From NCBI GenBank assembly GCA_052033375.1, contig JBPOJQ010000010.1, positions 5,941 through 69,940 of the forward strand: a DNA stretch of 64,000 nucleotides, given 5' to 3'. Shown one piece after another: positions 32,149 through 60,876 of the stretch; the first letter of the stretch is position 1, and each line of letters opens with the position of its first letter. The notes beneath the pieces are model-generated. The model had not been told where the DNA came from. It did not search any database and saw nothing but the letters and a program-made list of their open reading frames with translations. The DNA is from Candidatus Magasanikiibacteriota bacterium (GTDB lineage Bacteria > Patescibacteriota > Patescibacteriia > Magasanikbacterales > UBA922). A program made the translations under genes and the position numbers.

Positions 32149-32235
32149 CGGAGAGGGCGAGATTCGAACTCGCGAGACCCTTTCGGATCCGGCAGTTTAG
32201 TAAACTGCTGTTTTCAACCACTCAACCACCTCTCC
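32149..32235 (-). tRNA. type-II (long variable arm) Ser-like tRNA with anomalous anticodon loop UUACUAA (anticodon ACU by canonical placement)
   Basis: GGAGAGG acceptor, GTT/AAC D-stem, GCAGT/ACTGC anticodon stem, 18-nt variable arm, GCGAG-TTCGAAT-CTCGC T-arm; aligns base-for-base with tRNA-Ser(UGA) at 32516-32603. Confidence 0.6.
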
Positions 32236-33202: not shown

Positions 33203-33205
33203 TAT

Positions 33206-45851: not shown

Positions 45852-48146
45852 ATGCTCCCGAAGACTCGACGAACAATTAATACAAAGTTAAAAGTTACCG
45901 TATGGACCTTTCGTGCGGTTGCTTTTGTTTTTTTATTTATTTTTTCTTTCCACCTGTTCGGCGATGTTTTGTACGCAGCACCTTCGAGTGTGGCAGAAGA
46001 CCAATTTGGTATTGAGGGTGTTGGTGAAAATATTAGCATTCCGTCAGATCCGAATTCTGATATTAGAGTAATTATTGTTCGGATTATCAATGTTGTGTTG
46101 ACTTTTCTTGGTATCGTGGCGGTGGGTTTTGTACTCTATGCTGGTTATCTCTGGATGACCTCTTCTGGGAACGAGGAACAAGTCGCTCAGGCTAAAAAAA
46201 TGCTTGTTAATGGAGTTATTGGTCTTACGATTATACTTTCAGCTTTTGGGGTGACGAGTTATATCCTACGGTCTCTTATTAATTCGATTAATGGTTCAAG
46301 TGGTGGTGTGACGACTGGTACGCGTCCTGCGGTCGCTACGTATACATTTTCTGGTTCTCTTGGAAGCGTGATTAAGGATCATTATCCTCGTCGTGATCAG
46401 CGTGAGGTTCCGAGAAATACTAGTATTGTGGTCACTTTTGGAGTTCCTGTTGCTCCGTCGTCACTGATTGAAAATATTAATCGAACCTGCTGGAGTGATG
46501 ATTGGTCTCAACCAACTACCATATGTAAAACTCCTTCAGGAGGAGTTGTCGATACCAATACTCCGCTTGATCAAATTGTTAATCCGTATTATGGGGACTG
46601 TGTTGATACCAATAATGATGGAACTGTTTCAGTACAATCTGAATGTGATCGACTTATTACTGATCGAGTAGTCTTTGATGAACGTTCATTATTTACTTCC
46701 GCTGTCTCTGAGGGGGGCTCTATAGGAAAATCAGCGGCTGCGCTTACTACGTATGACTTACAGAGAAATGCTTTCACTTTTGTAATTAAGCCATATGAAT
46801 ACTTGGGTTCTTCAAGCGAAGATATTGAGTACCGTGTTCGATTGACCCCAGAAATTATGCGAGCTGATAATGGACAGAGTGTGTTTGAAAATCAATTTTC
46901 AGATGGGTATGTGTGGGATTTTACTACAGGTAATACGCTCGATTTGGCGCCCCCACATGTGTTGAATGTCTATCCTGAGACCGGTTCGATTATTCCAAAA
47001 AATTCAATTATTCAGATTACATTTGACGAGCCGATTGACCCTACTACTGTTGAGAGCATAGTAAATGAGGGTTCGAATAATACATTTGTTTCGACTTTGC
47101 TTAATCAGAAAATAGGCGAGACTCTATATGCTGTGTCTGGATCATGGAGACTGACGAATGGGTATACCACGCTTGAATTTACACCAAGCGCTGATTGTGG
47201 AGTCAATAGTTGTGGGGAGAAAATGTTTTGTCTCGAAGTGGATTGTTCGGGTGCCACCTGTACTAATTCATATGAGGCTCTCCTTCGGACCGCAGAATGG
47301 ACGAGAAATAGTCAATCACCTTTTGAATCCGTACCTTTCTCTGGTATTTATGATTTAGCGTTTAATGGACTCGATAATACAGCAGATAATGAGACGAGTA
47401 ATCATCTTACTAAGCCTGATCTCAATACTGCAATTTTGATTCAACCTGCTGAAAAAAAACCTGATAATTATTGGTGGTCTTTTCAGGTTTCGAATACTAT
47501 CGATCGTTCGGCACCGTATATCGAAGAGATTATTCCAGGTGTTGATGCAGAAGATATTTCTGGTAGCATTCCTGTTTCAATACGTTTTAGCAAACGTATG
47601 ATGTCTGCGACGTTGCAGGGTGTGGATATACGCAGTGGAATTTCTCTGTTGGAGCATCCCACGAATATTTGTTCTGACGCTGCTATTGATACTGAATCTC
47701 CAAATGAATGTTCCGATGACGCACGGTTGGATAATTTATGGTTCAGAGTGGGTAGTGTAATAGTTGGTGATAAGACTCGAGCTATTTTGGACCATCGTGA
47801 ATTTGGACCCAATGGTCTGGATTTGTATTACATTCCAAGTGTTCCTAGCACCGTCAAAAGTGTGACGCAGAATTGTGTATATCCAGGAATTGGCCCATGG
47901 ACAGAGACACCAGCTCCCTCAGGAGAGGCATCTGTATGTGAAGTGACATACGATAAAAATGGATACGTGCAATCGAGTGTGGGCTGTGTCGGGGTTACTC
48001 ATAATGACGCTCTCGAAGATACTGGGTGTGTGTATACACTTGGTTCGGGGTATACTGCTGGAAGTCCAAGCGATCCTATTTTTCGAGCGAGTGACATAGA
48101 GTCTTGTGTGAATCGTCTCTATACTGAGTCTCAGAATTCATATTAA
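45852..48146 (+). CDS. secreted/membrane-anchored protein with N-terminal signal peptide + two-helix pilin-like module and Cys-containing ectodomain
   Basis: N-terminal ~140 aa ~60% identical to N-terminus of the 3433-aa protein (IRVIIVRIINVVLTFLGIVAVGFVLYAGYLWMTS..AKKMLVNGVIGLTIILSAFG). Confidence 0.55.
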   Translation: MLPKTRRTINTKLKVTVWTFRAVAFVFLFIFSFHLFGDVLYAAPSSVAEDQFGIEGVGENISIPSDPNSDIRVIIVRIINVVLTFLGIVAVGFVLYAGYLWMTSSGNEEQVAQAKKMLVNGVIGLTIILSAFGVTSYILRSLINSINGSSGGVTTGTRPAVATYTFSGSLGSVIKDHYPRRDQREVPRNTSIVVTFGVPVAPSSLIENINRTCWSDDWSQPTTICKTPSGGVVDTNTPLDQIVNPYYGDCVDTNNDGTVSVQSECDRLITDRVVFDERSLFTSAVSEGGSIGKSAAALTTYDLQRNAFTFVIKPYEYLGSSSEDIEYRVRLTPEIMRADNGQSVFENQFSDGYVWDFTTGNTLDLAPPHVLNVYPETGSIIPKNSIIQITFDEPIDPTTVESIVNEGSNNTFVSTLLNQKIGETLYAVSGSWRLTNGYTTLEFTPSADCGVNSCGEKMFCLEVDCSGATCTNSYEALLRTAEWTRNSQSPFESVPFSGIYDLAFNGLDNTADNETSNHLTKPDLNTAILIQPAEKKPDNYWWSFQVSNTIDRSAPYIEEIIPGVDAEDISGSIPVSIRFSKRMMSATLQGVDIRSGISLLEHPTNICSDAAIDTESPNECSDDARLDNLWFRVGSVIVGDKTRAILDHREFGPNGLDLYYIPSVPSTVKSVTQNCVYPGIGPWTETPAPSGEASVCEVTYDKNGYVQSSVGCVGVTHNDALEDTGCVYTLGSGYTAGSPSDPIFRASDIESCVNRLYTESQNSY

Positions 48147-48151
48147 TCCTT

Positions 48152-51100
48152 ATGAAACGCCTGTTTTCTTTTGTAAATATAGTATCAATTGGGGTCGTCC
48201 TTTTTGCAGTGTATTTTGGCTTTGCGGGAACTTTTTTCGCGCAAGAAGCAGTAGCTGATACTTTTGGACTCACTAGCGTGGGAGAACAAATTTCTGTGTC
48301 GAGTCAAACTCCTGATTTGAGGGTTACTGTGGTGCGTATTATTAATATTTTTTTGGGTTTTTTGGGAATTGTAGCAGTTTGTATCGTGTTGTATGGCGGA
48401 TATTTGTACATGACGTCGAGAGGGGATGATGAAAAAATCGGTACAGCAAAAAAAATCTTGGTCAATGGCTCAATTGGGCTTTTGATTGTACTTTCTGCAT
48501 TTGGAATAACTTCATTTGTATTATCTCGGTTACAAGATTCAATTTCTGGTACCTCTGGGCCGGGTGGTGGGGGCGGGGGTGGAGGTGAATTACTAGGATC
48601 GTGTGACGATGTTAATTCTCCGTATTATGCGGCCTACGCGACGACTCGTTGTGCACAATTTTGTGATAATCATCCGGTGCAGTGTGCATCCTCTCAGTAT
48701 TTTATTGTAAAAAGTATTACTCCTCACACACCTGATGCTGCTGACTCAACTGGTATGAATAATTCTGTGATTCGCGTGTTATTTAGTAAACAGCCAGCAG
48801 GTGCAGTGAGCGATATCTTTAAAATATTTAAAAAAGAAAGCGAACAAGAAGTTGATATTACGAGTCAATTTAATTTTTCATTTGAGGAGGGTGGTCTTCT
48901 CGTTGCTGCGACGTATACACAAGGACCTGCCTGTGCGTCGGTAAATGGTGTTTCAGTGTATTGTCTTTCGAACGGTGAATATCGGATTGAAGTGAATCAA
49001 AATTTGCGTGACATTGAGGATCGAGCATTGACCCTTGAGGTTGCAAATCAGTCATTTCCTCGAATTGCGACATTTCGTACTGGTTTATCGGGCGACACAC
49101 CTATTATTGATAGTGAATTTTCTGCTCTTGCACCAATTTCTATTGGAGGTTACCACGGTGATGATACTTTTCGAGCAGTCCGCGGAGAGACATATACGAT
49201 TGAAGGCACTCTCGGAGATACTCATGGAAACGCGTACGTGGATATGAAAGTTTATCGTGAAGGTTCATCTGGTCCGAGCGTTGTAAGATATGTTGATGGT
49301 CCACGTGTTCGTGCTACGGGTGGCTCTAGTCAGTCATTTGATTTTGAATACACACTTCGAATTGATTCGAATAAATTTGCCCCTGCAGTGGTGTATGTTG
49401 TGGAAATTATTGCGCATGATATTGATGGAAATACTGCCACCGATATAGTCAAATTTATAGTGGTACCTGCAAGTTGTACGAATGGTCTTCTTGATGCGGG
49501 CGAAACTGACGTCGATCAAGGAGCTGTGTGTGGTGGCGCACAGGGTAATAGTTGTCAATCTCAGAGTGATTGCGCTTATTGGCTCCAATGTCTTGATAAT
49601 GCTAATGCTGCATGTACTGGCTCAAATTGTTCATGTAAAGAAGTTCCTTATATTTCGAGTGTTGAATATATGAATGGTGCGCCAGGTAACTGGATTACTA
49701 TATTAGGTAAAAATTTTGGATCATCTGTTGGGGAAGTTACATTTAATTATGATTTTGATAGCAATGGTACTATAGATTCTCGTGTGCCTGTAGTGCTTGC
49801 TCAATGCCAGGAAGGGACTGTGTGGAATGATTCGTGGATCATTGTTGAAGTTCCTCAGCAGGCGCAATTTGCTTCTGAAGATGAGATCGTCAATCCTTCT
49901 ATTTCAGTTGTTTTACCCTCAGGACTTTCAGATTCTACGGATAATGATTTTGGTCCTCAACTTGGTACCTTTGTATATAATACAGTACAGCGTCCAAATC
50001 TATGTTCGGTTACTGTTGATGGTGATCATTCTGTACCTCTTGAGGATGGTACGAGTGTCACATTACATGCAGGTGATACCGCTGCACCACAGGGAACACC
50101 TGTGATTCTCGAAGGTAAGGGCTTCGGTATGTCTGAAGGTGAAGTTATTTTTCATACTGCTGCCGCAAATGTTGAGTCATGGTCAGGCGATGTTATTAAT
50201 TCTGCTGTACCATTTTTGGGTGAAGGACAGACTTCGGTGTATATTACATCTGATCTTGGTGAAAGAAGTAATCCTGTTTCTTTTATTGTTTCATCACCTG
50301 CTAATCTACGCCCACCAACTATTACCTCGATTGATCCAACGTCTGTGACCAAAGGGAGTTACATCACAATTACGGGTAATCGTTTTGGAGTGAGTGGTAA
50401 TGTGTACTTCACGCAGATTGAGGGTGGAAATTGTCCTGGGGCTGGGTGTATCCTCGGAGGGACACTTCCTCAGTCGTGTGGGAACACATGGAGCGTTAAT
50501 CAATTGATTACCAAGATCCCTGATGATCTTGAGTTTGCACTCGGTACATATTTTGTTGTTGTTGTTCGAGAAGATGGTGTAAAAACTGCAGGGTCAGAAA
50601 GTATCACTGTTGTCGCAGGTCCACCTTCGCCCAGTATTTGTCGTATTGATCCGCATCGTGGGTTTGCACCTATTTTTGATGAATCTGATGCAATCACTAT
50701 ATATGGAGAGAATTTTATCACTGACTCAGCAGTGAAGTTTTGGTACCCTCTCGGACAGTCGCAAGATCCGGATAGCTGGCTTTCAACTCAGTTGGGGGCA
50801 GGTATTGATGGTGGATCAATTTTAGATCTGACTACTCAGGAAATTAAGACGACTATTCCATATGATCCTGATTCTGGGCTTTCTATGTCGAGCGGACCTG
50901 TCAAAATTAAAAATGCCGCTGGATTATTCAGTAATGCAGTGAACTATACGGTATTGGATTGTCGTGATCCTGGTAGTCCACAAATTTCTGGATTCCAGTG
51001 TTGTAGTGAGGGTCCTGAGGCGGGTAGATGGAAACATGGAAATTATGCGTGTGAAAATTCGAGTCGTGAAGCCGGGTATGTGTGGAGATTTTCAAGTGGT

Positions 51101-54100
51101 AAAATGCCACAAAAGTTTTTTGTAAATGAACTTTGTTCGGACAGTGGATCACCCTCACCTAGTCCTTCAACACTCTGGAGCGATGGGTATAACGTATGTG
51201 TGAATGCTCAGTTGACTATTAATTTTAATTTACCAGTGAATCGGGCGACTGTTTTGGATCAATCAGGTAATATCACAAACATTACGATTTCTCAATGTGG
51301 AGGTACTGACACTGCAATTGATTGCTCAAACGATGAGCAGGTTGTTACTTCTGAATTTTCGGGTGAAGAGATGGGGGAGAATGCATTAGTTTTCAGAAAA
51401 AAGGATGGACCAATACTTTCCCCGCAGACGTGGTATCGCGTGGGTCTTTCGTCTGCTGTTTCTTCCCTTAGATTTGAAAATGAACTTGGAGATTTGGTTG
51501 AAAAAACAGAAAATTTGGAGCCGACACGTGAATGTCAAATCAATGGGGCAACCTATGCATATTGTTTTGATTTTAGAACTGGCCCTGCTAATTTTCAATG
51601 TTCACTTGTAGGCGCTGGAATTCATCCTTCAGATTACACCACAACACTTCTTGGAGTGGTACAGGATTCGCGAGGCAATAAAATTTATGATATTAATCGA
51701 GTATTTAATATATCTGCTGTACGTCCGCTAACATATCGTGTGTATGGTAAAAGCAATTTAGCATGTACGACGATTAATGTGGATGATAAGCCATGGGCAT
51801 GGGGTCCAATTGATGATGCGCCTGCGACTGGAAAACAAATGGTTGGACAGGTGCAGTCAAAAGGATATGCGGTAGCCTGGGAGCATTTTCCCGCAGGCTC
51901 TCCTATCAGTGCGACCATTATTGAAAATAGTGAAGAAATTAAGGCAGTGAGCATGCTTAGGATTACTCTTGGAGATCCGTACGCGAAGAATGTCTGGCCA
52001 TCGTGTAATGAGGCGTGTGTAAATGCTGAGATTGGTATTGAGTTCAATCAGATTATGGATGTTCGCACTTTTGATGCTTCGAAGTTGGCATTACATGAAT
52101 GTAGTACCGAAATGTGCGACTCATTAATCGAACCTTCTGTTCCATTGGTAATCACATCTGATTTGCAAAGTGAAACCATTCTTCGTGCATATCCAGCTAC
52201 GCTTTTGAAGAAAAATACATGGTATATTGTTGACTTGGAGGAGGGGGTGCGTGCTATAGGAGGTGTGGCCGAGGGCGAAGGTACTAAACTGGGCAGTAGT
52301 GTGCAGCCAAAACAGTGGAAATTCAGAACCAAAGATTCAGCACAATCATGTCTTGCTGATGCTGTTAAAATTTCGCCTGATCCTTTTTATTCAACTTATA
52401 TCGGAGAAGCGCAGTTATATCGAGCACTTCCTGTCGGTTCCCCAGATTCTTGTAGCGCGTCTGGCCAGCAGCTTAATCCGTGGAGTTATGGTTGGAATTG
52501 GAGCGTCGAAGATTCTGGAGTTGCGAAAGTAACTAACTTTAGTTTCAAAGGTTCTACTAAATCAGCGTGTACTATTGGCTGTACTCCTGTTGGTAGTGAT
52601 ATTTCCCGTCAACTGACGAGTTATCCTGTGTGTGGTAATGGTACTAAAGAGTCGGGCGAAGATTGTGATATTGCTCGTCCGGGTGAAATTCCTGGGACAA
52701 GTTGTTCATTTTCTTGTCTTCGTCCAGGTAGTAGCGCAACGTGTGGTAATGGTATTGTAGAGAATTCTTCAGGCGAAGAATGTGACTATAACGCTCCGGG
52801 TGCGATTCAAGGACTCTGTACGAATACATGTACCAATGCAGGATCTGCTTCACAGCCTGATATCGCTGGGAATGTGAATGCGCCTGTGTGTGGTGGGGGC
52901 GGCATCGGCTACGGCGAGGATTGTGATATTGATGATCCAGCGACCAAACATGGGTGTTCTAATACCTGTGTGAATATTGGTACACCAATTTCTCAGGCAT
53001 GGTGTGATGGGTGGGTGAGTTATTCTCAAAATCCAGGCAGTGTTAGTGCTGTAATGCGTGTACAGTATGCAGAAGTAAGTATGTCTGAATTCACAGCGGC
53101 ATGTGGTTCTGCTACTAGTGTTTGTGGTAATGGAATTATTGAGCAAGGAGAAGAGTGTGAGAGTACGGATTCTTACTGTTCAGCTCGTTGTCTGATTCAA
53201 AATGCATGTAATACACCGTATCAACAGTGCGCGCGTGGTGAAGAAGGTTGTCTCTCGGATTGCACATTTGCAGGTTCGTCGATTATGTACTCTACTCCTT
53301 CGGTTTGTGGAGATGGTATTGTCGGGATTGGAGAATTTTCCTCAGAAGATGATGATATTCGCTCATGTGAATTACCTCTAGCGACTGTTGGTAATACTCT
53401 TGGTGGAAATCCTGTACAGGTGGTCACGGCAGTGGGTAATCCAAGTAATGTTCCAACTACAGGGGTAGTTACTGATATGGAGACTAGGGTACAGGCACAG
53501 GCAAGTGTCGGACGCGATGAAGCTACGGGGAATCAGATTTCGATTGCTTCGGTCGCTGGCGAAGGTGAATATCATCTTCAGTGCGGATACGATGAATATG
53601 CGACCAAGCAAAGCGATGGTTCGTATAATAACTGTCCGTCTAATTCTGATAATACTTTCGGCGTTGCTTCTAATTCGTGCTGTATTGAACGACCGGCAAG
53701 AGTCGAAGAATATCCCATTTCGAATGCGGGTATCGGTGCCGGGAGTACGCCGGTATGCCGTAATACATATATTAGTGTTAGTTTTGATCAGAATATTCCT
53801 GCGGAATATATTCAAAATAACATTCAATTAGTCCAAGGTTTTGCACAGGGTTATTCGTGTTCTGAGCATGGTGGAAAAGATGTGACACTTGCGTTGAGTA
53901 GCGCACTTGATACAAACAGTACACATACTCAGAATTTTTGGGTCCGTGTCTGGAATTCAATTAAAACATTCTTTGCTCAATTGATACAAATTCGTGCACT
54001 CGCAGCACCTCAACCAAACGCATCAGTTCCGGGTGATCTGGTGCTGTGTTCAGGTGTGACTCCGTTTACTGTGAGACCAAGTTATGAAACGAATGCTGAC

Positions 54101-57100
54101 GGTGTGATTACCAAGACACTTGTGTCTATTTATCCAAATCAGGCGCTAGAATCAAATCAATATGTGCTTGTCCTACTTAATGGTGGTGAGGGTGGAATCA
54201 GAAATAATGTAGGAGTAAGTATCAAGTCACCTCTTGGTTCTGAGTTATCTGATTATTGGGTATTTAAGACTGGTGCACAAATTTGTAAGATACAGGAGGT
54301 CGTTGTTGAGCCTGCTTCAGCATTGTACACGGTGCCTAATAGTTCAAAACAATTTGTTGCACAGGCTATTTCTACTGATGCAGTGCGAAATCAAAAAATT
54401 GTGCCTATTCCTTTGCAGTATGCGTGGGAGTGGAATTGGGGACCACAAGAGGATGCTATTTTTGATATTCCTGTCACTGCAAATGCTGAAAATTCAATTA
54501 CTTCAAAAGGCGTTCGTGGACATACTGATGGTATTGTGAGTGCACGTGTAACAGTCGATGCTTCTCAGACGAATAATCAATCAGGTAAAACTTTTTCAAC
54601 TATATACAGTCTTGATGCTTTATTCTGTCAGAGACCATGGCCTCTCACTGCGAATCCGGTAAATGCAGATGATGTGGGGATAGATACGCTTTTTGTTGAT
54701 TTGACTTATAACTTTTCAATGTATTATTGTGCTGACAGTGGAAGTCCGTTGTCTTCTTTTGATGATCTTCCGTACTTTAATCAGATTGAAGTTATCACTG
54801 ATCCTACACAGCTCGGAGTCATTGCTCCGGGGGATTTACCAGATGCCTTAAGGCGTTATCTTTTGTTCGCTGATAAGACCGAAGATGCGATTGGGGTGCA
54901 GATTTTTGCAAATCCAGTCAAACCTGACGGCACTAGGCAAACATTGAACGAGTGGTATATCGGTAAATTTGGTGATCTTTCTGGTGTAAAGCAGGCAAGT
55001 ATCGCGGGGTATGACGCACTTTTGAATGATTTTAATCTGTATGTGAATGCGTATAATTTGTACGATCAATCAGTATATAACAACGTATATTTGTTTAGTA
55101 TTGATACTAATGCGAGCCCTGAAACGAGACAGGTATTTGATCAGTTGATCGCATCTCTACGCTTTAATATCAATCTCACTAATCACAATCGGTGTCTGCG
55201 TGCTGGAGCTTCTGGGGTGAGAGAAAGTCCGAATGAACTGGCTATTCCTTTGATTTCTTGTACCACTGATTTTGATTGCCGAGATAGTGCTGGCGCACCA
55301 AAGACTGGAACGAATGGTACCTGTTCGAATGCACTCACTAAGTTTGGACGTGATGTGAATCGTTTACAGCAGATGTCTCTAATTCAGAAAAAAACAGAAG
55401 CACAATTATCAAATACTGAATTGAATCTGTCGAGTGGCACGTATATCCCAGGATACACAAATTCAAAGTGGTCCTCATGGGGTAAATTAGGAGGAATTAT
55501 TGGCGGTGCTGCAACCGATCCGGTGAATCAATGGGTAGGGTGTAGCCCTCATGATCCTTCGACATGTTGGAGTGCCGACCTCACCACGTTTAGATGTCCT
55601 ACATTTTCTCAAGTGTATGAGTATGAGTATGATTCAGTGACTAAGAATTATGAGTACTATGTTCCATTTGAGTTTATCAATTCCTCTGATGATGATTTTG
55701 CGTCTCAATATGTTGATCTCCGGCATGTCAATTTTGATCGATGGGCACAGTGTAGGGCACCCGGCTCTATTGTGAGTCCATTTGGTGGGCAATGTGGGGA
55801 TGGGAACGTAAATATTGGGGAAGCGTGCGATCCACCAGGGAGAACTACCCTGTATGATAATGCATGTCCGGTCGGGTCATATGCAACAGCTACTTGCAAT
55901 TCTTCTTGTCAGTATACATACGGCGCGTGTAGCGCGAGTGCTGCGGTGTGCGGGAATGGACGAATAGATGCTGCAGAAGCATGCGACGCAGGATCAGAGA
56001 ACGGTACGTATGGAAGTCGATGTACTACACAGTGCCAAGTTGCGACTCAAAGTAACGGCGGACAGTTTTGTGGAAATGGTATTTTGGATACCAATGCTCA
56101 GGGAAATTATCTAGAATTTTGTGAAGAAGTAAATGGTGCTTGTATGCACATTAGTGAGAGCGGACAGATATTGAAGCCTGAAGTACATATTTTGCTTGAT
56201 AATTCTAGTTCTATGTCAGGCACGAAATGGGCAAGTGCTGTAGCAGGTATTCAGAATATTTATGCTGAATTATCTGATAGTATCAATTTCAGTCTGAGCA
56301 TATTTTCTCCGGTTGATAAACTTAATTCTCCTACCACCTGTTCACAGGTGATACCGCTTTCTTCGCTGCCTGCTACACCCAATGCAAACACGCCGACCAA
56401 AAGTGCACTTGCAGAGATATATGCACTGAGAACATCATTGTTTGGTTCTAATGATAGTGTTGCAAAAAAACTCGTAATTATTACTGATGGAGATCCAACC
56501 AATTTTGATTATCGAAATCAATTTGGACAAATAACAGCAAGTTGTCAGGGAAATACTCCTTCAAATGTGGTTAGTGAGATTCAGAAATTTAATCAAGCAA
56601 ATATTCAGACATTTGTCGTTGGGTTTGGTAATCTGAGTCAGAGTCTTAAAAATAATCTCAATTTATTTGCTCAAGCTGGTGGAACTAGTAACCCTGACTC
56701 ACCATCGAGTGATCTGTTTTTCACCGCTGAAAATTCATCCCAGCTGGTGAGCGCTTTTTCTGGTATTTTGGGTTGTTTTGAATACAGTCAATATAAACAA
56801 AACTCATGTTCCTGGAATTGTCAGGAATATGGAGATTATTGTGGTGATGGAATTGTGCAACAGGGGAGCGGTGAAGAGTGTGAGCCCTCTATCAGTGGAG
56901 TGAATACCTGTAGTCCGTATTGTAAATTTGTCGTTACACCAGCTGCAGTGTGTGGAAATTCTCAAGTGGAATCAGGTGAACAGTGTGATGATGGTAATAT
57001 ATCTGATCAGGATGGATGTTCGTCATTATGTTCGTTTGAATCAGTGTCGGCTGCGTGCGGGAACGGCATTGTCGAGACGGTGAACGGCATACAAGAGCAA

Positions 57101-58453
57101 TGTGATTTGGGTTCTCAAAATGGATTATCATGCAATCCGGCATATAATACCCCGTGTACATACTGCAGTAATACATGCACCAATATTACGGTAGATGCTG
57201 TTGCGTATTGTGGTAATGGGAGTATTGATCAGATTAACCCAACTACTCGTGAAGCATGTGATTATGCAGATTCGACCATTGTTGGTGGAACGGGCGCATT
57301 AATTTGTTCTGATAAAGGCACGTATTCGTGTACTAATAATTGTCTGCAGTTGGTGAATAATTGTGTGACGTGTGGAATAAGTACTACGACATTGACTACG
57401 CCTAAAATTTCTATTTTGAATCCGTTGACGCAAGCTGGTAATTCGCCGTACACTCCGACGATTGGGTATGTCGACATATTGCGAGGGAGCACTTCCACTA
57501 ATTTGCAGTGGCTTGGGTATCGGAAAATAAATTATCGGTCAGAAGATCCAAATTCATACATCGATCCATTTGATCCATACACATTACTCATTGATGCAGC
57601 TTATCAGCCGGTGACTAATCAGGGTCTCCAAACTAATGGTTCGTGTAATGGTGAATATGTGCTACTCTTCAATAAGAGACATATTAGTGAAGAAAAAACA
57701 GGCAATACAAATGGACTTACCCATGCACAGATTGTGAATCAGGGTTTTGGTGATTTGTTTGCATATCCAGTCAGTGGTGAGGGTGGTCAAGTAGTGAATG
57801 AAGTTATCCTATCTCCTGCTGTGCCACAGGATCAGGTACGTATTGTGGTGAGATGGAAAAAGAAATCATCAGGCGCGTTATTCACAGGTAATCTGTACCA
57901 GGACAATGCTACGCCAAGTGTGATTAGTTATGTGACGAATGATCGGACGAAGTTGTGTGGAGATATGGATATCACTCCACAGAGTTCGAATTATTATCTT
58001 CCTGTCGGATGCCTTCCTGTAACTCCATCCACGTGGATTCATCAGATTTTGAATCCGAGTGTTACTACCCAGGCAACTCAGGCATTTACTCTATCTGCTC
58101 TTAATCGACAGTCAGATAGGACCATCGGGTTCTATGTTTCTTCGTTATCTGGTCCGATTAATCAGTTTAAAGATTATGAACTATGGGTCGATGTATACGA
58201 GTATCATGCAGGCCAGGTCCCACTCTATTCGGTGTACAAACCAACACATACTTTTTCTTTTGGTGATGCTATCCAGAGTACTAATCCACTCGCACGATAT
58301 TGGCATGTGTTCAATCTTACCATCAGTGGCTCAAATGCGTTGAAAAAGTTTACTGTGCAAACCGTGGCTGGTGCAAATTCTGGAGCTATTGTTACGAGTG
58401 AGTGTGAAGTTCGAAAGAATATGCCAAACACTACACAATGTCCGACTCAATAG
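48152..58453 (+). CDS. giant (3433 aa) surface protein: N-terminal pilin-like membrane module, poly-Gly linker, IPT/TIG-like repeats, three clusters of Myxococcus-type Cys-rich repeats, vWA domain
   Basis: Uninterrupted ORF. IPT-like ILGKNFG/ITGNRFG/IYGENF (49.6-50.9 kb). CGNG/CGDG...GE(E)CD(DGN) repeats at 52631-53350, 55790-56110, 56820-57380. vWA MIDAS LLDNSSSMSG and ITDGDPT at 56170-56780. Confidence 0.7.
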   Translation: MKRLFSFVNIVSIGVVLFAVYFGFAGTFFAQEAVADTFGLTSVGEQISVSSQTPDLRVTVVRIINIFLGFLGIVAVCIVLYGGYLYMTSRGDDEKIGTAKKILVNGSIGLLIVLSAFGITSFVLSRLQDSISGTSGPGGGGGGGGELLGSCDDVNSPYYAAYATTRCAQFCDNHPVQCASSQYFIVKSITPHTPDAADSTGMNNSVIRVLFSKQPAGAVSDIFKIFKKESEQEVDITSQFNFSFEEGGLLVAATYTQGPACASVNGVSVYCLSNGEYRIEVNQNLRDIEDRALTLEVANQSFPRIATFRTGLSGDTPIIDSEFSALAPISIGGYHGDDTFRAVRGETYTIEGTLGDTHGNAYVDMKVYREGSSGPSVVRYVDGPRVRATGGSSQSFDFEYTLRIDSNKFAPAVVYVVEIIAHDIDGNTATDIVKFIVVPASCTNGLLDAGETDVDQGAVCGGAQGNSCQSQSDCAYWLQCLDNANAACTGSNCSCKEVPYISSVEYMNGAPGNWITILGKNFGSSVGEVTFNYDFDSNGTIDSRVPVVLAQCQEGTVWNDSWIIVEVPQQAQFASEDEIVNPSISVVLPSGLSDSTDNDFGPQLGTFVYNTVQRPNLCSVTVDGDHSVPLEDGTSVTLHAGDTAAPQGTPVILEGKGFGMSEGEVIFHTAAANVESWSGDVINSAVPFLGEGQTSVYITSDLGERSNPVSFIVSSPANLRPPTITSIDPTSVTKGSYITITGNRFGVSGNVYFTQIEGGNCPGAGCILGGTLPQSCGNTWSVNQLITKIPDDLEFALGTYFVVVVREDGVKTAGSESITVVAGPPSPSICRIDPHRGFAPIFDESDAITIYGENFITDSAVKFWYPLGQSQDPDSWLSTQLGAGIDGGSILDLTTQEIKTTIPYDPDSGLSMSSGPVKIKNAAGLFSNAVNYTVLDCRDPGSPQISGFQCCSEGPEAGRWKHGNYACENSSREAGYVWRFSSGKMPQKFFVNELCSDSGSPSPSPSTLWSDGYNVCVNAQLTINFNLPVNRATVLDQSGNITNITISQCGGTDTAIDCSNDEQVVTSEFSGEEMGENALVFRKKDGPILSPQTWYRVGLSSAVSSLRFENELGDLVEKTENLEPTRECQINGATYAYCFDFRTGPANFQCSLVGAGIHPSDYTTTLLGVVQDSRGNKIYDINRVFNISAVRPLTYRVYGKSNLACTTINVDDKPWAWGPIDDAPATGKQMVGQVQSKGYAVAWEHFPAGSPISATIIENSEEIKAVSMLRITLGDPYAKNVWPSCNEACVNAEIGIEFNQIMDVRTFDASKLALHECSTEMCDSLIEPSVPLVITSDLQSETILRAYPATLLKKNTWYIVDLEEGVRAIGGVAEGEGTKLGSSVQPKQWKFRTKDSAQSCLADAVKISPDPFYSTYIGEAQLYRALPVGSPDSCSASGQQLNPWSYGWNWSVEDSGVAKVTNFSFKGSTKSACTIGCTPVGSDISRQLTSYPVCGNGTKESGEDCDIARPGEIPGTSCSFSCLRPGSSATCGNGIVENSSGEECDYNAPGAIQGLCTNTCTNAGSASQPDIAGNVNAPVCGGGGIGYGEDCDIDDPATKHGCSNTCVNIGTPISQAWCDGWVSYSQNPGSVSAVMRVQYAEVSMSEFTAACGSATSVCGNGIIEQGEECESTDSYCSARCLIQNACNTPYQQCARGEEGCLSDCTFAGSSIMYSTPSVCGDGIVGIGEFSSEDDDIRSCELPLATVGNTLGGNPVQVVTAVGNPSNVPTTGVVTDMETRVQAQASVGRDEATGNQISIASVAGEGEYHLQCGYDEYATKQSDGSYNNCPSNSDNTFGVASNSCCIERPARVEEYPISNAGIGAGSTPVCRNTYISVSFDQNIPAEYIQNNIQLVQGFAQGYSCSEHGGKDVTLALSSALDTNSTHTQNFWVRVWNSIKTFFAQLIQIRALAAPQPNASVPGDLVLCSGVTPFTVRPSYETNADGVITKTLVSIYPNQALESNQYVLVLLNGGEGGIRNNVGVSIKSPLGSELSDYWVFKTGAQICKIQEVVVEPASALYTVPNSSKQFVAQAISTDAVRNQKIVPIPLQYAWEWNWGPQEDAIFDIPVTANAENSITSKGVRGHTDGIVSARVTVDASQTNNQSGKTFSTIYSLDALFCQRPWPLTANPVNADDVGIDTLFVDLTYNFSMYYCADSGSPLSSFDDLPYFNQIEVITDPTQLGVIAPGDLPDALRRYLLFADKTEDAIGVQIFANPVKPDGTRQTLNEWYIGKFGDLSGVKQASIAGYDALLNDFNLYVNAYNLYDQSVYNNVYLFSIDTNASPETRQVFDQLIASLRFNINLTNHNRCLRAGASGVRESPNELAIPLISCTTDFDCRDSAGAPKTGTNGTCSNALTKFGRDVNRLQQMSLIQKKTEAQLSNTELNLSSGTYIPGYTNSKWSSWGKLGGIIGGAATDPVNQWVGCSPHDPSTCWSADLTTFRCPTFSQVYEYEYDSVTKNYEYYVPFEFINSSDDDFASQYVDLRHVNFDRWAQCRAPGSIVSPFGGQCGDGNVNIGEACDPPGRTTLYDNACPVGSYATATCNSSCQYTYGACSASAAVCGNGRIDAAEACDAGSENGTYGSRCTTQCQVATQSNGGQFCGNGILDTNAQGNYLEFCEEVNGACMHISESGQILKPEVHILLDNSSSMSGTKWASAVAGIQNIYAELSDSINFSLSIFSPVDKLNSPTTCSQVIPLSSLPATPNANTPTKSALAEIYALRTSLFGSNDSVAKKLVIITDGDPTNFDYRNQFGQITASCQGNTPSNVVSEIQKFNQANIQTFVVGFGNLSQSLKNNLNLFAQAGGTSNPDSPSSDLFFTAENSSQLVSAFSGILGCFEYSQYKQNSCSWNCQEYGDYCGDGIVQQGSGEECEPSISGVNTCSPYCKFVVTPAAVCGNSQVESGEQCDDGNISDQDGCSSLCSFESVSAACGNGIVETVNGIQEQCDLGSQNGLSCNPAYNTPCTYCSNTCTNITVDAVAYCGNGSIDQINPTTREACDYADSTIVGGTGALICSDKGTYSCTNNCLQLVNNCVTCGISTTTLTTPKISILNPLTQAGNSPYTPTIGYVDILRGSTSTNLQWLGYRKINYRSEDPNSYIDPFDPYTLLIDAAYQPVTNQGLQTNGSCNGEYVLLFNKRHISEEKTGNTNGLTHAQIVNQGFGDLFAYPVSGEGGQVVNEVILSPAVPQDQVRIVVRWKKKSSGALFTGNLYQDNATPSVISYVTNDRTKLCGDMDITPQSSNYYLPVGCLPVTPSTWIHQILNPSVTTQATQAFTLSALNRQSDRTIGFYVSSLSGPINQFKDYELWVDVYEYHAGQVPLYSVYKPTHTFSFGDAIQSTNPLARYWHVFNLTISGSNALKKFTVQTVAGANSGAIVTSECEVRKNMPNTTQCPTQ

Positions 58454-58496: not shown

Positions 58497-58850
58497 ATGA
58501 AACAGAAGTTTTTTGTGATCGTTGGTGTCTGTGTTCTTTTGGGAATTCTTGGGTTTGGCGTGTGGTGGTTTATCTCCCATCGACAGAATCCGATTGTGCC
58601 AGAGGTGTTTGAGATTCCTGAATGGTATTATGTTGATAAAGACGGTGATGGAATTACTGATACACAAGAGACCGAACTGGGTACCAGTGTAATTGAATCA
58701 GATACTGACGGGGATACTATTTCTGATAAGCTTGAAATAGAAGTATATAAAACTGACCCCCAAAATCCTGATACCGATCAGGATGGTTATTGGGATGGAC
58801 TTGAGTTAATTCAAGGACATGACCCACTTGAAAAAGCATCTATTAATTAA
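58497..58850 (+). CDS. membrane-anchored protein with bacterial thrombospondin-type-3 Ca-binding repeats (paralog 1)
   Basis: N-terminal TM; DKDGDGITDTQE, DTDGDTISDKLE, DTDQDGYWDGLE. Confidence 0.55.
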   Translation: MKQKFFVIVGVCVLLGILGFGVWWFISHRQNPIVPEVFEIPEWYYVDKDGDGITDTQETELGTSVIESDTDGDTISDKLEIEVYKTDPQNPDTDQDGYWDGLELIQGHDPLEKASIN

Positions 58851-58859: not shown

Positions 58860-59741
58860 ATGTTTGACGATGTGCAACCTCCAAAACCAGGCGCTACGCC
58901 ACCGAATCTTCCTCTTGGCGAGCCCGAAGATATTTTTGAGCGTAATGATGTCGTTGAATCCAATGACAGTGCGCCTATATCAGAGCCGTCTCCCGATTCT
59001 ACTTCCCCCGTCCTCACAAACACCGCTCTTGATATGGGTGTTTTGAAGCCAAAAAACTCTCTACAAACTACCAGTACTCCTGTCCAATCACCAGTTTTTT
59101 CTTCAGAGTCGAGTCAATTGAATCCTCCAGCACCTCTTCAGAATTACACAATTCAGGCTCCACCAGCTCCTTTTTTAGCCGAAGAACGAGGAATGGCGCC
59201 TACTCCAGCTGGTGTTCCTCAGGAAGCGCCGTTTAGTGGAAGAAAAATATTAATGATTATTGCTGTGTTAGTAATAGTGGTTTTGATTGGTTTTGGAAGT
59301 TTGTGGATTTATACTTCATTTATCAAAAAAAATATTGATCAAAATAATTTTATTTCTCCTGTAATCACTCCTACATCCTCATCATCTGATTTTTCCGATA
59401 CACCAGTGGAGGAATCTTTACCCGTGAATTCCACCTCTACTAATATTGAGGATAGCATTCTTTTTGGTGAGCCAGTAGATACTGATAATGATGGAATTTT
59501 AGATATACATGAAGTAGAGTACGGCACGGATACACTTAATTGGGATACTGATCAAGACGCACTTTCTGATGGTGATGAGGTGTCAGTGTGGAATACAGAT
59601 CCTTTGACTTTTGATACTGATGGCGATGGGTATTCAGATGGAGTTGAAGTGAAAAATGGATACAAACCTACTGGACCAGGTAAATTATTTGATCCACCGA
59701 CCCAGACAAGTACTCCTAAAGCGACGACCACTTCAATGTAA
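58860..59741 (+). CDS. TSP3-repeat membrane protein (paralog 2), Pro/Ser-rich N-terminus, central TM
   Basis: TM ILMIIAVLVIVVLIGFGSLWIY; DTDNDGILDIHE, DTDQDALSDGDE, DTDGDGYSDGVE. Confidence 0.55.
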   Translation: MFDDVQPPKPGATPPNLPLGEPEDIFERNDVVESNDSAPISEPSPDSTSPVLTNTALDMGVLKPKNSLQTTSTPVQSPVFSSESSQLNPPAPLQNYTIQAPPAPFLAEERGMAPTPAGVPQEAPFSGRKILMIIAVLVIVVLIGFGSLWIYTSFIKKNIDQNNFISPVITPTSSSSDFSDTPVEESLPVNSTSTNIEDSILFGEPVDTDNDGILDIHEVEYGTDTLNWDTDQDALSDGDEVSVWNTDPLTFDTDGDGYSDGVEVKNGYKPTGPGKLFDPPTQTSTPKATTTSM

Positions 59742-59751
59742 ACCTTTTGAT

Positions 59752-60876
59752 ATGAGCTTATTTAGCTCGAAGAAAAATTCATCACAGCCGATCCCGAGTA
59801 CTGCTGAATTGTCTATACAAAAAATACCAGATATTTTTTATGGTGGGAATAATCCTGTTATTTATGAACCCACGCAAGAAAAAAGTCGGGTGGTTTCAAT
59901 TTCAAAGCCATCTTCTCCAAAACCGAACAATCCTGTATCATCATCTGAATCTGCGACACAGAAATCTCGTGTAGTTTTATTAATTATAGTCCTTGGCTTG
60001 TTGGTAATTGGAGGGGCGTCTGCCTATTACGTGTATCAATATCGTGCAACTCAAAATGCACGAGTAGTCACGCCATCATCTGTTCAAACACAAACGACAA
60101 CTGAAGATACAGCTCCCACATCAATCACTCCCTCGATTACTACATCAACGTCGATTGGTGATCGTGCTCCAAGTACCACACCTTCTCTTACTTCTAGCTT
60201 CCTTGAATTTCCTTCGGTGAATTTGGGTACTAGTGCTGATACGGATTTGGATCAGCTGACTGATGTCGAGGAGGTTCTGTACGGTATTGATAGTGGAACA
60301 TGGGATACTGATCAGGATGGGTATTATGATGGGCAGGAGGTCATCAATTTGTATAGTCCTCGTGGAGGTTCGCCTATGAAATTAATTGATTCTGGATTGG
60401 TTCGAGAATATATTAATCAGTTTTCTGGATATCGAGTATATTATCCACTGCAATGGAATCAGGGAGGAGTTGATGCCCAGGAGAAGCATATGTTGTTTAG
60501 TGCTATTTCTGGCGAATATGTTGAAATTCGTGTGTTTGAAAAGAGTCCAGGTTCTACATTTTCTCAATGGTTTCAGATACATGCCCCTGGAGAGCAGTTT
60601 AGTTTACTTTCTCCGTTTACAAACCGTTTTGGGTTTGATGGGTGGAAACGGACAGATGGGCTTGTAGTGTATTTTGATACCCCCTCTTTTGTATTTACAA
60701 TAATTTATCAGCAGGTGGATACTGTCACACCTGTACCATACCGGACCACAATGGAGATGATGTATCAGAGCTTTAGACCAACTGCCACTTCGCGAACACT
60801 GCCTGAACAGATACCATTGGTGTTACCTTCGAATACAGTTTCTTCTAGCGCTACGAGTTCGACGACTGCACCTTAA
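59752..60876 (+). CDS. TSP3-repeat membrane protein (paralog 3) with C-terminal globular domain
   Basis: TM VVLLIIVLGLLVIGGASAYYVY; DTDLDQLTDVEE, DTDQDGYYDGQE; start set at ATG 59752 to avoid overlap with paralog 2. Confidence 0.55.
   Translation: MSLFSSKKNSSQPIPSTAELSIQKIPDIFYGGNNPVIYEPTQEKSRVVSISKPSSPKPNNPVSSSESATQKSRVVLLIIVLGLLVIGGASAYYVYQYRATQNARVVTPSSVQTQTTTEDTAPTSITPSITTSTSIGDRAPSTTPSLTSSFLEFPSVNLGTSADTDLDQLTDVEEVLYGIDSGTWDTDQDGYYDGQEVINLYSPRGGSPMKLIDSGLVREYINQFSGYRVYYPLQWNQGGVDAQEKHMLFSAISGEYVEIRVFEKSPGSTFSQWFQIHAPGEQFSLLSPFTNRFGFDGWKRTDGLVVYFDTPSFVFTIIYQQVDTVTPVPYRTTMEMMYQSFRPTATSRTLPEQIPLVLPSNTVSSSATSSTTAP

What the first reader, a model, noticed from the sequence alone, without database searches (positions are those of the whole stretch)
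48152..58453. 3,433-aa giant surface protein: pilin-like anchor, IPT/TIG repeats, vWA domain and three arrays of Myxococcus-type Cys-rich repeats
A single uninterrupted 10.3-kb ORF. After a signal peptide, two-helix membrane module and a G11 linker, the ectodomain has at least four IPT/TIG-like beta-sandwich repeats (ILGKNFG, ITGNRFG, IYGENF). It has a MIDAS-containing vWA domain (LLDNSSSMSG...ITDGDPT). It has more than 12 copies of the CGNG/CGDG-x(4-8)-GE(E)CD(DGN) repeat in three clusters. The architecture is that of an adhesin or host-interaction protein. Giant proteins of this kind are typical of episymbiotic CPR but are individually uncharacterised.
Basis: partly seen in the sequence, partly recalled or inferred. 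Interest (0 to 1): 0.7.

Follow-up and report, generated by a model that had tools for sequence, protein, structure and literature searches.

The report
Conserved giant pilin-anchored surface protein
This is a real 3,433-residue surface protein of an uncultured ultra-small (Patescibacteria) bacterium; it belongs to a large family of giant proteins, for which I found no published description, that always sit in the same five-gene cassette and probably form the cell's long attachment fibre.

Summary
It has a signal peptide, a VirB2-like two-helix hairpin (PF18895), a Gly8 hinge, four TIG domains, three Big_5 domains, 12 Cys-rich repeats in three arrays, and a vWA domain with a complete MIDAS motif.

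Four points are new.
1. It is not a one-off. An exhaustive search with its Pfam-less central region found 1,075 representative proteins. Most are 3,000-5,000 aa and colinear from end to end. The named ones come from Magasanikbacteria or Uhrbacteria (class ABY1).
2. In 43 metagenome loci the gene sits in a fixed cassette: a ~700-aa partner with the same hairpin, the giant, then three TSP3-repeat membrane proteins.
3. The vWA is a fast-evolving, non-universal insert. Relatives carry LamG, BACON or beta-propeller modules instead.
4. The gene has split at least twice at one seam (aa ~2420). Each time the downstream gene gained its own signal peptide, which defines an anchored stalk and a separable head.

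The most likely function is a membrane-anchored, disulfide-rigid attachment fibre. This is inferred, not shown. [quoted passage not shown]

The parts
48152..58453 (+). Giant gene, 3,433 aa, single ORF
   Evidence: Colinear with 11 family members.
48152..48250 (+). Signal peptide (aa 1-33). The cleavage site near AQEA|VADTFG is approximate.
   Evidence: Hydrophobic segment at aa 4-22. The cleavage position is inferred.
48314..48532 (+). VirB2-like two-helix hairpin (aa 55-127). TM1 is aa 63-81, the cytoplasmic loop is TSRGDDEKIGTAKK, and TM2 is aa 106-124.
   Evidence: PF18895, 31.3 bits on the N-terminal fragment. NF045849 Mbov_0395 pilin-like, 33.7 bits. Hydropathy. Motif conserved over 57 sequences.
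48563..48586 (+). Gly8 hinge (aa 138-145)
   Evidence: A Gly-rich stretch is conserved in the family consensus.
48629..49591 (+). Membrane-proximal region (aa 160-480). It has no Pfam hit and ends in a Cys-rich knot (aa 442-495).
   Evidence: Detected in 62 of 150 homologues.
49643..50956 (+). Array of four IPT/TIG domains (aa 498-935)
   Evidence: TIG found in 12 of 12 family members.
50957..52606 (+). Two Big_5 Ig-like units, each with a following beta domain (aa 936-1485)
   Evidence: Weak Big_5 hits. Internal repeats 1003-1106 / 1276-1369 and 1338-1454 / 1985-2100.
52619..53386 (+). Cys-rich repeat array 1. Five repeats start at aa 1494, 1531, 1580, 1658 and 1719.
53387..54433 (+). Third Big_5 unit (aa 1862-1928) plus a repeated beta domain (aa 1985-2100)
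   Evidence: Big_5, 42.9 bits. Internal repeat.
54434..55786 (+). Family-hallmark central module (aa 2095-2545). It has 10 invariant Cys and no Pfam or PDB sequence match.
55406..55459 (+). Seam (aa ~2419-2436) where orthologues are split into two genes
55787..56155 (+). Cys-rich repeat array 2. Repeats start at aa 2548, 2600 and 2640.
56174..56776 (+). vWA domain with a complete MIDAS motif (aa 2675-2875). It occupies a variable slot.
   Evidence: Only 41-44% identical to the closest relatives, against about 70% for other modules. Found in 9 of 150 homologues.
56804..57376 (+). Cys-rich repeat array 3. Repeats start at aa 2897, 2934, 2969 and 3020.
   Evidence: TIGR02232, 39.1 bits..
57377..58450 (+). 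Conserved C-terminal beta-rich domain (aa 3076-3433). It ends in C-x-V-R/K-x-N-M-P-N-T-T-x-C.
   Evidence: Found in 95 of 150 homologues. No Pfam or PDB sequence match. The AF2 model was unusable, pLDDT 43.
45852..48146 (+). Partner gene, 764 aa. It has the same signal peptide plus hairpin module (55% identity over 117 aa) and a Big_5 domain. Its stop codon lies 5 nt before the giant's ATG.
   Evidence: Present in 30 of 31 loci with upstream coverage.
58497..58850 (+). TSP3-repeat single-pass membrane protein 1 (117 aa)
   Evidence: Conserved position in the cassette.
58860..59741 (+). TSP3-repeat single-pass membrane protein 2 (293 aa)
59656..60876 (+). Single-pass membrane protein 3 with D-x-D-x-D-G repeats. 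The ORF is 406 aa. The true start is probably the ATG at 59752.
   Evidence: No Pfam hit.

Best explanation
The gene encodes the main component of a conserved cell-surface apparatus of an ABY1-class (Magasanikbacteria-like) Patescibacterium.

Proposed assembly:
1. The protein is exported by Sec, and its signal peptide is removed.
2. A VirB2-like two-helix hairpin then holds it in the cytoplasmic membrane, with both ends outside and a short charged loop inside.
3. A Gly8 hinge follows, and then a ~3,290-aa ectodomain rich in disulfide bonds.

The ectodomain has two functional parts.
- The stalk (aa ~150-2419) consists of Ig-like TIG and Big_5 domains, the first Cys-repeat array and the N-terminal part of a family-specific central module.
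- The head (aa ~2436-3433) consists of the rest of that module, Cys array 2, a variable ligand-binding slot, Cys array 3 and a conserved C-terminal beta domain. In this protein the slot holds a MIDAS vWA domain. Relatives carry LamG, BACON or beta-propeller modules there or elsewhere in the protein.

Proposed function: the fibre reaches out from the tiny cell and binds a ligand on another cell or surface, here in a metal-ion-dependent way through the vWA. It works together with its cassette neighbours. These are the 764-aa partner, whose hairpin co-evolves with the giant's and probably pairs with it in the membrane, and three Ca-binding TSP3 membrane proteins.

Shown here: the ORF, the domains, the hydropathy topology, the family, the cassette, the variable slot and the seam.
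Inferred: adhesion itself, the ligand, hairpin pairing and head-stalk docking.
For: - ORF and domains.
- Topology: three hydrophobic segments only, all N-terminal. There is no LPxTG motif, no RTX repeat and no C-terminal hydrophobic tail.
- Cysteines: the protein has 127 Cys, and about 110 are invariant or nearly invariant across 12 family members. This fits an extracellular, disulfide-bonded protein.
- Family: 1,075 representative homologues of the central module. Most are 3-5 kaa, with the hit at the same relative position. The module order is conserved in the top 150. Pfam found T4SS_pilin, TIG and Big_5 in 12 of 12 members.
- Cassette: partner, giant, then three TSP3 proteins, in the same order, in 43 metagenome loci plus 4 others.
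- Variable binding modules: vWA in 9 of 150 and 2 of 12, Laminin_G_3 in 3 of 12, beta-propeller in 1 of 12. L001 has a LamG insertion, and L001 and L002 carry 8 BACON domains.
- vWA is the fastest-evolving module: 41-44% identity against 62-79% for most other modules (C-terminal domain 48-59%). Its MIDAS motif is intact.
- Seam: independent gene fissions at aa ~2420, each with a new signal peptide on the head gene, in the L001/L002 lineage and in the L028/L029/L033 lineage. The seam lies inside a module that AF2 predicts as one compact unit (pTM 0.85).
- Hairpin: the motif is conserved over 57 sequences. Within-genome identity between giant and partner (median 49.7%) exceeds giant-giant identity across genomes (44.6%).
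- Context: giant membrane proteins are thought to mediate host attachment in CPR (PMC8080830), and adhesins are essential in Saccharibacteria (PMC10633639).
Against: - There are no experimental data for any family member, and no ligand is known.
- The gene's strict conservation, single position and neighbourhood (HisRS, S21, YqeY upstream; YbeY, FtsA downstream) look more like a core structural component than a typical fast-turnover adhesin.
- The vWA domain, the most adhesin-like element, is not a family-wide feature.
- The central module and the C-terminal domain have no recognisable functional homologue.
- The host-dependent lifestyle of ABY1 bacteria is itself inferred.
Confidence: 0.55

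Rival explanations
1. T4SS-coupled 'giant pilin'. The N-terminal VirB2-like module is not just an anchor. It is extracted from the membrane, or docked, by the Patescibacteria T4SS encoded 22 kb upstream, perhaps as a short hetero-oligomeric pilin stub together with the partner. The giant ectodomain would then be the target-cell contact device of that secretion system, a functional analogue of PrgB-type mating adhesins.
For: - PF18895 and Mbov_0395 pilin-like hits in both the giant and the partner.
- VirB4 and TrsD in the window also match best to the same Mycoplasma/Clostridium ICE families.
- The giant and the partner are the only hairpin-bearing ORFs in the 64-kb window, and no small pilin gene fits in the T4SS cluster.
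- Invariant Gly and polar positions in the hairpin, and the within-genome co-evolution of the two hairpins, suggest specific helix packing.
- Literature: predicted T4SS pilins are essential in Southlakia (PMC10633639), and no PrgB-like adhesin was found in Patescibacteria (PMC12102498).
Against: - The cassette is never next to T4SS genes within +-10 kb in 47 loci.
- In an ABY1 genome listed in the supplement of PMC12102498, no PF18895 gene is associated with TrsD-VirB4.
- A 3,300-aa C-terminal extension seems sterically incompatible with a homopolymeric pilus. This rests on general knowledge of VirB2/TraA pili and was not tested here.
Confidence: 0.2
2. Core envelope scaffold. The cassette builds a structural surface layer or a spacer needed for envelope integrity or cell division, rather than for binding another cell.
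For: - Rigid synteny with ybeY-ftsA (and ftsZ in L004) and with housekeeping genes upstream, across relatives only 27-70% identical.
- End-to-end colinearity and near-invariant cysteines.
Against: - Accessory modules that come and go (vWA, LamG, BACON, beta-propeller) are typical ligand- or glycan-binding domains.
- The distal third evolves fastest.
- A protein anchored by a single hairpin, 3-5 kaa long, is unlike known lattice-forming S-layer proteins. This rests on general knowledge.
Confidence: 0.2
3. Artefact. The ORF is a chimeric or collapsed assembly, or a pseudogene, or the domain hits are chance matches.
For: The repetitive protein architecture could in principle mislead an assembler. 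One relative (L004, 2.3x coverage) is riddled with frameshifts.
Against: - No DNA repeats longer than 26 nt and no tandem repeats.
- Full colinearity with many independent assemblies.
- Domain scores are well above the curated cutoffs.
Confidence: 0.02

Closest known systems
VirB2-like T4SS pilins of Patescibacteria (Pfam PF18895; essential pilin array of Southlakia epibionticum; PMC12102498, PMC10633639)
   Same: The N-terminal signal peptide plus two-helix hairpin matches PF18895 and the Mbov_0395 pilin-like family. The window also encodes a TrsD-VirB4-PrgI T4SS.
   Different: Those pilins are treated in the literature as small proteins, often in arrays beside virB4. Here the hairpin is about 4% of a 3,433-aa protein and lies about 22 kb from virB4, in its own conserved cassette. 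I found no description of such fusions in the papers I read.
Giant membrane proteins of the CPR predator Vampirococcus lugosii (1,392-4,163 aa; PMC8080830)
   Same: Very large, membrane-associated, multi-domain proteins in a CPR bacterium, proposed to mediate host recognition and attachment.
   Different: They belong to a different lineage (Absconditabacteria) and have a different domain set (WD40, PKD, integrin, fibronectin). No sequence relationship was tested. No conserved cassette or pilin hairpin is reported for them.
vWA-containing pilus-tip adhesins (for example PilY1 of type IV pili and RrgA-type tip pilins; recalled from general knowledge, not tested here)
   Same: A MIDAS vWA domain is held at the distal part of a long surface fibre, for metal-dependent ligand binding.
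   Different: In those systems the fibre is a polymer of pilins and the adhesin is a separate subunit. Here the stalk and the vWA are one polypeptide (or two in split orthologues), and the vWA is dispensable at the family level.
Myxococcus-type cysteine-rich acidic repeat proteins (TIGR02232 / DUF4215)
   Same: Twelve CGNG-x-GE-x-CD repeats match TIGR02232 above its cutoff.
   Different: The repeats are only spacers, about 17% of the protein, and the organism is a Patescibacterium. No function is known for the repeat itself.
PrgB / aggregation-substance adhesins of Gram-positive conjugation systems
   Same: A possible functional analogy: a large surface adhesin serving an MPF-FATA-type T4SS.
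   Different: There is no LPxTG sorting signal, no adhesin-domain hit appeared in the Pfam and NCBIfam scans of the protein, and the anchor differs. PMC12102498 reports that no PrgB homologues occur in Patescibacteria.

Membership tests
Pfam PF18895 T4SS_pilin (VirB2-like) | HMM score at or above the gathering cutoff (26.6 bits) | tested here: inconclusive
   The giant scores 31.3 bits as an isolated N-terminal fragment but 25.3 bits as the whole protein. The partner scores 32.0 bits. All 12 family members match, best E 1.5e-12.
Pfam PF18895 T4SS_pilin (VirB2-like) | Signal peptide followed by two hydrophobic helices joined by a short charged loop | tested here: met
   Hydrophobic segments at aa 4-22, 63-81 and 106-124; loop TSRGDDEKIGTAKK.
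Pfam PF18895 T4SS_pilin (VirB2-like) | Small stand-alone pilin encoded within or beside the T4SS gene cluster | tested here: not met
   3,433 aa, about 22 kb downstream of virB4. No T4SS genes within +-10 kb of the cassette in 47 loci.
Pfam PF18895 T4SS_pilin (VirB2-like) | Polymerises into, or is handled by, a T4SS pilus | not testable with these tools
   Needs structure or experiment. The only indirect hints are the conserved motif and the co-evolution with the partner hairpin.
IPT/TIG (PF01833) | HMM score above the cutoff (20.9 bits); repeated beta-sandwich units | tested here: met
   39.5-48.2 bits with 3 stretches, plus a TIG_SUH hit on the first unit. Four G-x-x-F motifs.
Big_5 bacterial Ig-like (PF13205) | HMM score above the cutoff (23.6 bits) | tested here: met
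   42.9 bits at aa 1862-1928. Two further copies fall below the cutoff but are linked by internal repeats.
von Willebrand factor type A (PF00092) with MIDAS | HMM score above the cutoff (23.8 bits) | tested here: met
   35.1-40.1 bits at aa 2678-2866.
von Willebrand factor type A (PF00092) with MIDAS | MIDAS residues: DxSxS, a downstream Thr, and Asp in a TDG motif | tested here: met
   LLDNSSSM, TPT and ITDG are present and align with other vWA-bearing family members. Metal binding itself was not tested.
TIGR02232 myxo_disulf_rpt (cysteine-rich acidic repeat) | HMM score above the cutoff (20.8 bits); tandem CGNG...GE.CD units | tested here: met
   39.1 bits. Twelve motif copies in three arrays.
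DUF4215 (PF13948) | HMM score above the gathering cutoff (27 bits) | tested here: not met
   21.3-23.4 bits. Eight of 12 family members match at E<=1e-3.
LPxTG/sortase-anchored Gram-positive adhesins (for example PrgB) | C-terminal LPxTG motif followed by a hydrophobic segment and a basic tail | tested here: not met
   No LPx[TSA]G anywhere and no C-terminal hydrophobic segment.
RTX / T1SS giant adhesins (LapA, SiiE type) | C-terminal GGxGxD nonapeptide repeats and a T1SS signal; no N-terminal signal peptide | tested here: not met
   No GGxGxD motif, no such Pfam hit, and the N-terminal signal peptide and TM hairpin are present.
ABY1 giant hairpin-anchored cassette protein (family defined here) | End-to-end colinearity: hairpin, TIG, Big_5, Cys array 1, central module, Cys array 2, slot, Cys array 3, C-terminal domain | tested here: met
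   Module map of 150 homologues. 12-sequence alignment with about 110 conserved Cys.
ABY1 giant hairpin-anchored cassette protein (family defined here) | Position in the cassette: partner, giant, then three TSP3 membrane proteins | tested here: met
   The window has all five genes. The same order is seen in the related loci.

The most novel reading that the evidence does not exclude
In ABY1 Patescibacteria a conjugation-type VirB2 pilin hairpin has been turned into a mounting module for giant adhesins. On this reading, the giant and its partner form a hetero-oligomeric pilin-like stub that the chromosomal, relaxase-less T4SS assembles or docks. The cassette would then be the 'missing' contact device of the Patescibacteria T4SS. 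The separable head (split off as a secreted subunit in some lineages) would be an exchangeable specificity cartridge. This would give a concrete role to the enigmatic T4SS 'pilins' of these bacteria.
Probability: 0.15. Interest if true: 0.85.

Novelty: new variant of a known kind. Interest (0 to 1): 0.6.

Why it matters
How Patescibacteria outside the cultivated Saccharibacteria attach to and exploit other cells is an open question. So is the function of their conserved, relaxase-less T4SS and its pilin-like proteins.

This analysis turns one anonymous giant ORF into a defined target that can be recognised in other genomes:
- a family with about a thousand representative members;
- a diagnostic central module, with a confident predicted structure and no close solved-structure relative;
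- a fixed five-gene cassette;
- a variable ligand-binding slot;
- a natural stalk/head seam.

This makes several things directly testable. They are phylogenetic profiling of the cassette against T4SS presence, metaproteomic detection, cryo-ET searches for fibres, and expression of the autonomous head for ligand screening.

It also warns that HMM-based censuses of 'VirB2 pilins' in Patescibacteria may include proteins thousands of residues long.

Tried and rejected
- Word-indexed homology searches were nearly useless here. The whole-protein query timed out. The central region gave 0 hits, and its profile gave 1 fragment. The C-terminal domain gave 2 hits. The exhaustive HMMER search was what revealed the family.
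- The exact-sequence look-up of the giant found nothing, so the window's genome is not in that collection.
- AF2 of the C-terminal domain with a 3-sequence alignment gave pLDDT 43 and was discarded.
- The afdb50 fold library was unavailable.
- Foldseek of the central module against the PDB gave nothing below E 1e-3. BFVD gave only weak partial matches to phage lipoproteins, TM ~0.2.
- Profile searches of the central and C-terminal modules, and a single-sequence search of the vWA segment, against PDB sequences gave nothing.
- I first read the split ORFs in L001 and L002 as a frameshift artefact. I rejected this because the junction carries a clean stop codon followed by a new start and signal peptide, and the same seam is split in a distant lineage.
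- The apparent split in L003 is an N-gap artefact.
- Alternative genetic code (code 25) as the cause of the L004 fragmentation was rejected. The pieces change frame, and code 25 does not join them.
- BLASTP of the 231-aa ORF against VirB4 gave nothing. NCBIfam later identified that ORF as TrsD-like.
- The supplement of PMC12102498 gives no protein lengths. I could not tell whether giant proteins were counted there as VirB2.
- Literature searches for a prior description of this family found none. The library is incomplete, so this is not proof of absence.
Full report
**1. The observation**

The window contains a single uninterrupted ORF at 48152..58453 on the + strand, 3,433 aa with an ATG start. 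Hydropathy analysis finds three hydrophobic segments, all at the N-terminus: aa 4-22, 63-81 and 106-124. The loop between the last two is charged (TSRGDDEKIGTAKK). Nothing comparable occurs in the remaining ~3,300 residues.

| Domain | Position (aa) | Score (bits) | Cutoff (bits) |
|---|---|---|---|
| T4SS_pilin (PF18895) | 63-123 | 31.3 isolated N-terminus; 25.3 whole protein | 26.6 |
| IPT/TIG | 498-935 | 39.5-48.2 | 20.9 |
| Big_5 | 1862-1928 | 42.9 | 23.6 |
| VWA | 2678-2866 | 35-40 | 23.8 |
| TIGR02232 Cys-rich acidic repeat | best hit 2933-2963 | 39.1 | 20.8 |

- Self-comparison links two further Big_5 units (1003-1106 with 1276-1369) and a repeated beta domain (1338-1454 with 1985-2100).
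- The four quoted TIG motifs lie at aa 519, 655, 742 and 852.
- There are exactly 12 CG[NDG][GS] repeats, in arrays of 5, 3 and 4.
- The glycine run is G8, not G11.
- The MIDAS residues (DNSSS, TPT, TDG) are present and conserved among vWA-bearing relatives.
- The DNA holds no tandem repeat and no direct repeat longer than 26 nt. The protein aligns colinearly with many independent assemblies. I therefore see no sign of misassembly, although reads could not be inspected.

**2. The organism and the window**

- S5 is followed directly by L15, with no room for L30 (ORF coordinates; identities). Absence of L30 is a known CPR trait; this rests on my own knowledge.
- The window encodes a Gram-positive-type T4SS of the kind described for Patescibacteria:
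  - a 1,270-aa protein with seven predicted TM segments and a long charged tail (16646..20458);
  - PrgI/VirB3 (22778..23257);
  - a TrsD-like protein (23333..24028);
  - VirB4 of the CD1110 family, 352.6 bits against a cutoff of 325 (24032..25894).
- Named homologues of the giant come from Candidatus Magasanikbacteria, Uhrbacteria and 'Patescibacteria group'. The supplement of PMC12102498 places Magasanikbacteria in GTDB class ABY1.
- The three closest genomic relatives (L001-L003) carry record titles saying 'uncultured Gammaproteobacteria'. Given the gene content, I regard these titles as mislabelled.

**3. It is a family, not a one-off**

- The central 600 aa have no Pfam hit. An exhaustive HMMER search with this region against 1.84 billion representative proteins returned 1,075 hits at E<=1e-3, of which 225 were at E<=1e-30. 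Most are 3,000-5,000 aa long, with the match at the same relative position.
- Mapping the window's modules on the best 150 shows a conserved order:

| Module | Homologues with it (of 150) |
|---|---|
| Hairpin | 114 |
| TIG | 114 |
| Central region | 146-147 |
| Cys arrays | 123-132 |
| C-terminal domain | 95 |
| vWA | 9 |

- A full-length alignment with 11 members is colinear, with about 110 invariant or near-invariant cysteines.
- Pfam over those 12 sequences finds T4SS_pilin, TIG and Big_5 in all 12, Laminin_G_3 in 3, Big_7 in 3, VWA in 2 and a beta-propeller in 1.
- Database names are generic, and I found no paper describing the family.

**4. The hallmark module**

- AF2 of aa 2095-2545, using a 22-sequence alignment, gave a confident model: pLDDT 86.6, pTM 0.85.
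- Foldseek against the PDB found nothing below E 1e-3.
- Profile searches against PDB sequences found nothing.
- The C-terminal domain (aa 3076-3433) likewise has no Pfam or PDB sequence match. Its AF2 model, built from a 3-sequence alignment, was unusable.

**5. A conserved five-gene cassette**

- The gene immediately upstream (45852..48146, 764 aa) carries the same signal peptide plus hairpin module, with 55% identity over 117 aa, and a Big_5 domain. Its stop codon lies 5 nt before the giant's ATG.
- Downstream lie three single-pass membrane proteins with TSP3-type calcium-binding repeats.
- A metagenome scan with the central-module alignment returned 43 loci.
- Wherever the flanks are present, the order is the same: partner (~680-765 aa), giant (3,065-4,985 aa, one ORF in most loci), then three TSP3 proteins (~140, ~290 and ~390 aa), then YbeY, a small ORF and FtsA. 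HisRS, S21 and YqeY lie upstream.
- No T4SS gene lies within +-10 kb of the cassette in any locus.
- Across 57 hairpins a specific motif is conserved: G..DiR..II...LG.LGi..lY.G...MT..G...aKki..N..iGL.IILs.
- Giant and partner hairpins from the same genome are more alike (median 49.7%) than giant hairpins from different genomes (44.6%). This suggests the two hairpins co-evolve. It argues for a specific interaction rather than a passive anchor.

**6. Variable slot and fast-evolving head**

- Against the closest relatives, most modules are 62-79% identical. The vWA is only 41-44% identical and the C-terminal domain 48-59%.
- Relatives add binding-type modules. L001 has a Laminin_G_3 insertion after aa 586. 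L001 and L002 carry eight BACON domains beyond the C-terminal domain.

**7. A natural seam**

- In L001 and L002 the orthologue is two genes. The first ends with a stop codon after the long helix of the central module.
- About 110 nt that are absent from the window supply that stop and a new start with a signal peptide (MFHRFHFFLSFVFIVFGFTFG...). This lies just before the conserved SGTYIPGYTNSKW motif.
- The same seam, at window aa ~2416-2426, is split in L028/L029 and in L033. Each downstream gene again has its own signal peptide.
- L028/L029 and L033 are each other's nearest neighbours. L001/L002 nest among fused forms (the window and L003). So there were at least two independent fissions.
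- Split forms also occur among the representatives: P0004 ends at the seam, and P0108, P0110 and P0139 start there.
- The seam lies inside the module that AF2 predicts as a single compact unit. The simplest reading is an anchored stalk and a head that can be secreted separately and docks non-covalently. The docking is an inference.

**8. Mechanism**

- Best supported (confidence 0.55): a Sec-exported, hairpin-anchored, disulfide-rigid fibre. Its distal head binds a ligand on another cell or surface, here through a MIDAS vWA. It works with the partner and the TSP3 proteins.
- Rival 1 (0.2): the hairpins are handled by the T4SS, and the cassette is that system's contact device.
- Rival 2 (0.2): the cassette is a core envelope scaffold.
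- Rival 3 (0.02): artefact.
- Literature context:
  - Giant membrane proteins are proposed attachment factors in the CPR bacterium Vampirococcus (PMC8080830).
  - In Southlakia the T4SS, its predicted pilins and several adhesins are essential (PMC10633639).
  - A phylum-wide survey found VirB2-like pilins in 1,948 assemblies and no PrgB-like adhesin, and does not mention pilin-domain fusions (PMC12102498).

**9. Comparison and verdict**

- The protein works like a long surface adhesin. It is not an LPxTG or RTX adhesin.
- It carries a PF18895-type hairpin, but it fails the 'small pilin in a T4SS cluster' feature of that family.
- It is a new variant of a known kind (giant CPR surface proteins), defined by a new central module, a conserved cassette and a stalk/head seam.
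- Interest is 0.6. The family-level picture is new and testable, but the function remains inferred.

Noticed in passing
window 16646-25894 (+): A chromosomal T4SS cluster of the Patescibacteria/MPF-FATA type. It comprises a 1,270-aa protein with 7 TM segments plus a long charged coiled-coil-like tail ending in a Gly/Pro-rich stretch, two ORFs with no hits (319 and 420 aa), PrgI/VirB3, a TrsD-like protein and VirB4 (CD1110 family). No relaxase or coupling protein was seen among the ORFs scanned. There is no room for a small pilin gene.
   Followed up: partly
window 6060-7151: Ribosomal protein S5 (ends at 6689) is followed after 27 nt by L15 (starts at 6717). No L30 gene lies between them, consistent with a CPR genome.
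   Followed up: partly
window 32148-32603 (-): Three tandem tRNA-Ser genes with anticodons ACT, GCT and TGA. An ACT (A34) serine tRNA is unusual, and the ARAGORN call overlaps the 5' (start) end of the beta-lactamase-like ORF 30992..32221 (minus strand). Rfam supports all three as tRNAs.
   Followed up: no
L001-L003 (CAYUTO010000007.1, CAYSXR010000010.1, CAZCHJ010000020.1): The record titles call these MAGs 'uncultured Gammaproteobacteria'. Their gene content is syntenic with the window and with Magasanikbacteria-type loci, so the titles look like mislabels.
   Followed up: partly
L001 13150-13420; L002 12700-12980; L028/L029; L033 ~10974: Recurrent gene fission of the giant at one seam, with a de novo signal peptide on the downstream gene. 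L028/L029 have stop-AAAT-ATG, and L033 has a 4-nt overlap. At least two independent events occurred.
   Followed up: yes
L004 (ERZ2470813 NODE_296, coverage 2.3x): A syntenic homologue broken into about 10 pieces by frame changes. FtsA and YbeY are also split. This is most likely low-coverage assembly error, not an alternative genetic code.
   Followed up: partly
window 58390-58450 (aa 3414-3433): The extreme C-terminus carries a family-conserved motif, C-E-V-R/K-x-N-M-P-N-T-T-x-C: two Cys flanking an N-T-T sequon. It is terminal in 56 of 92 homologues and internal in those with BACON or other extensions. Its role is unknown.
   Followed up: no
window 27300-28344 (-): Genes for lumazine synthase and riboflavin synthase (Lum_binding), a vitamin-biosynthesis fragment in an otherwise reduced-looking genome.
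   Followed up: no
window 33183-35219 (+) and 30992-32221 (-): A 678-aa VanW-domain protein and a class-A-like beta-lactamase-family protein, both probably related to the cell wall.
   Followed up: no
window 59656-59741: The third TSP3-type ORF overlaps the second by 86 nt when read from its first ATG. The in-frame ATG at 59752 is the more likely start.
   Followed up: no
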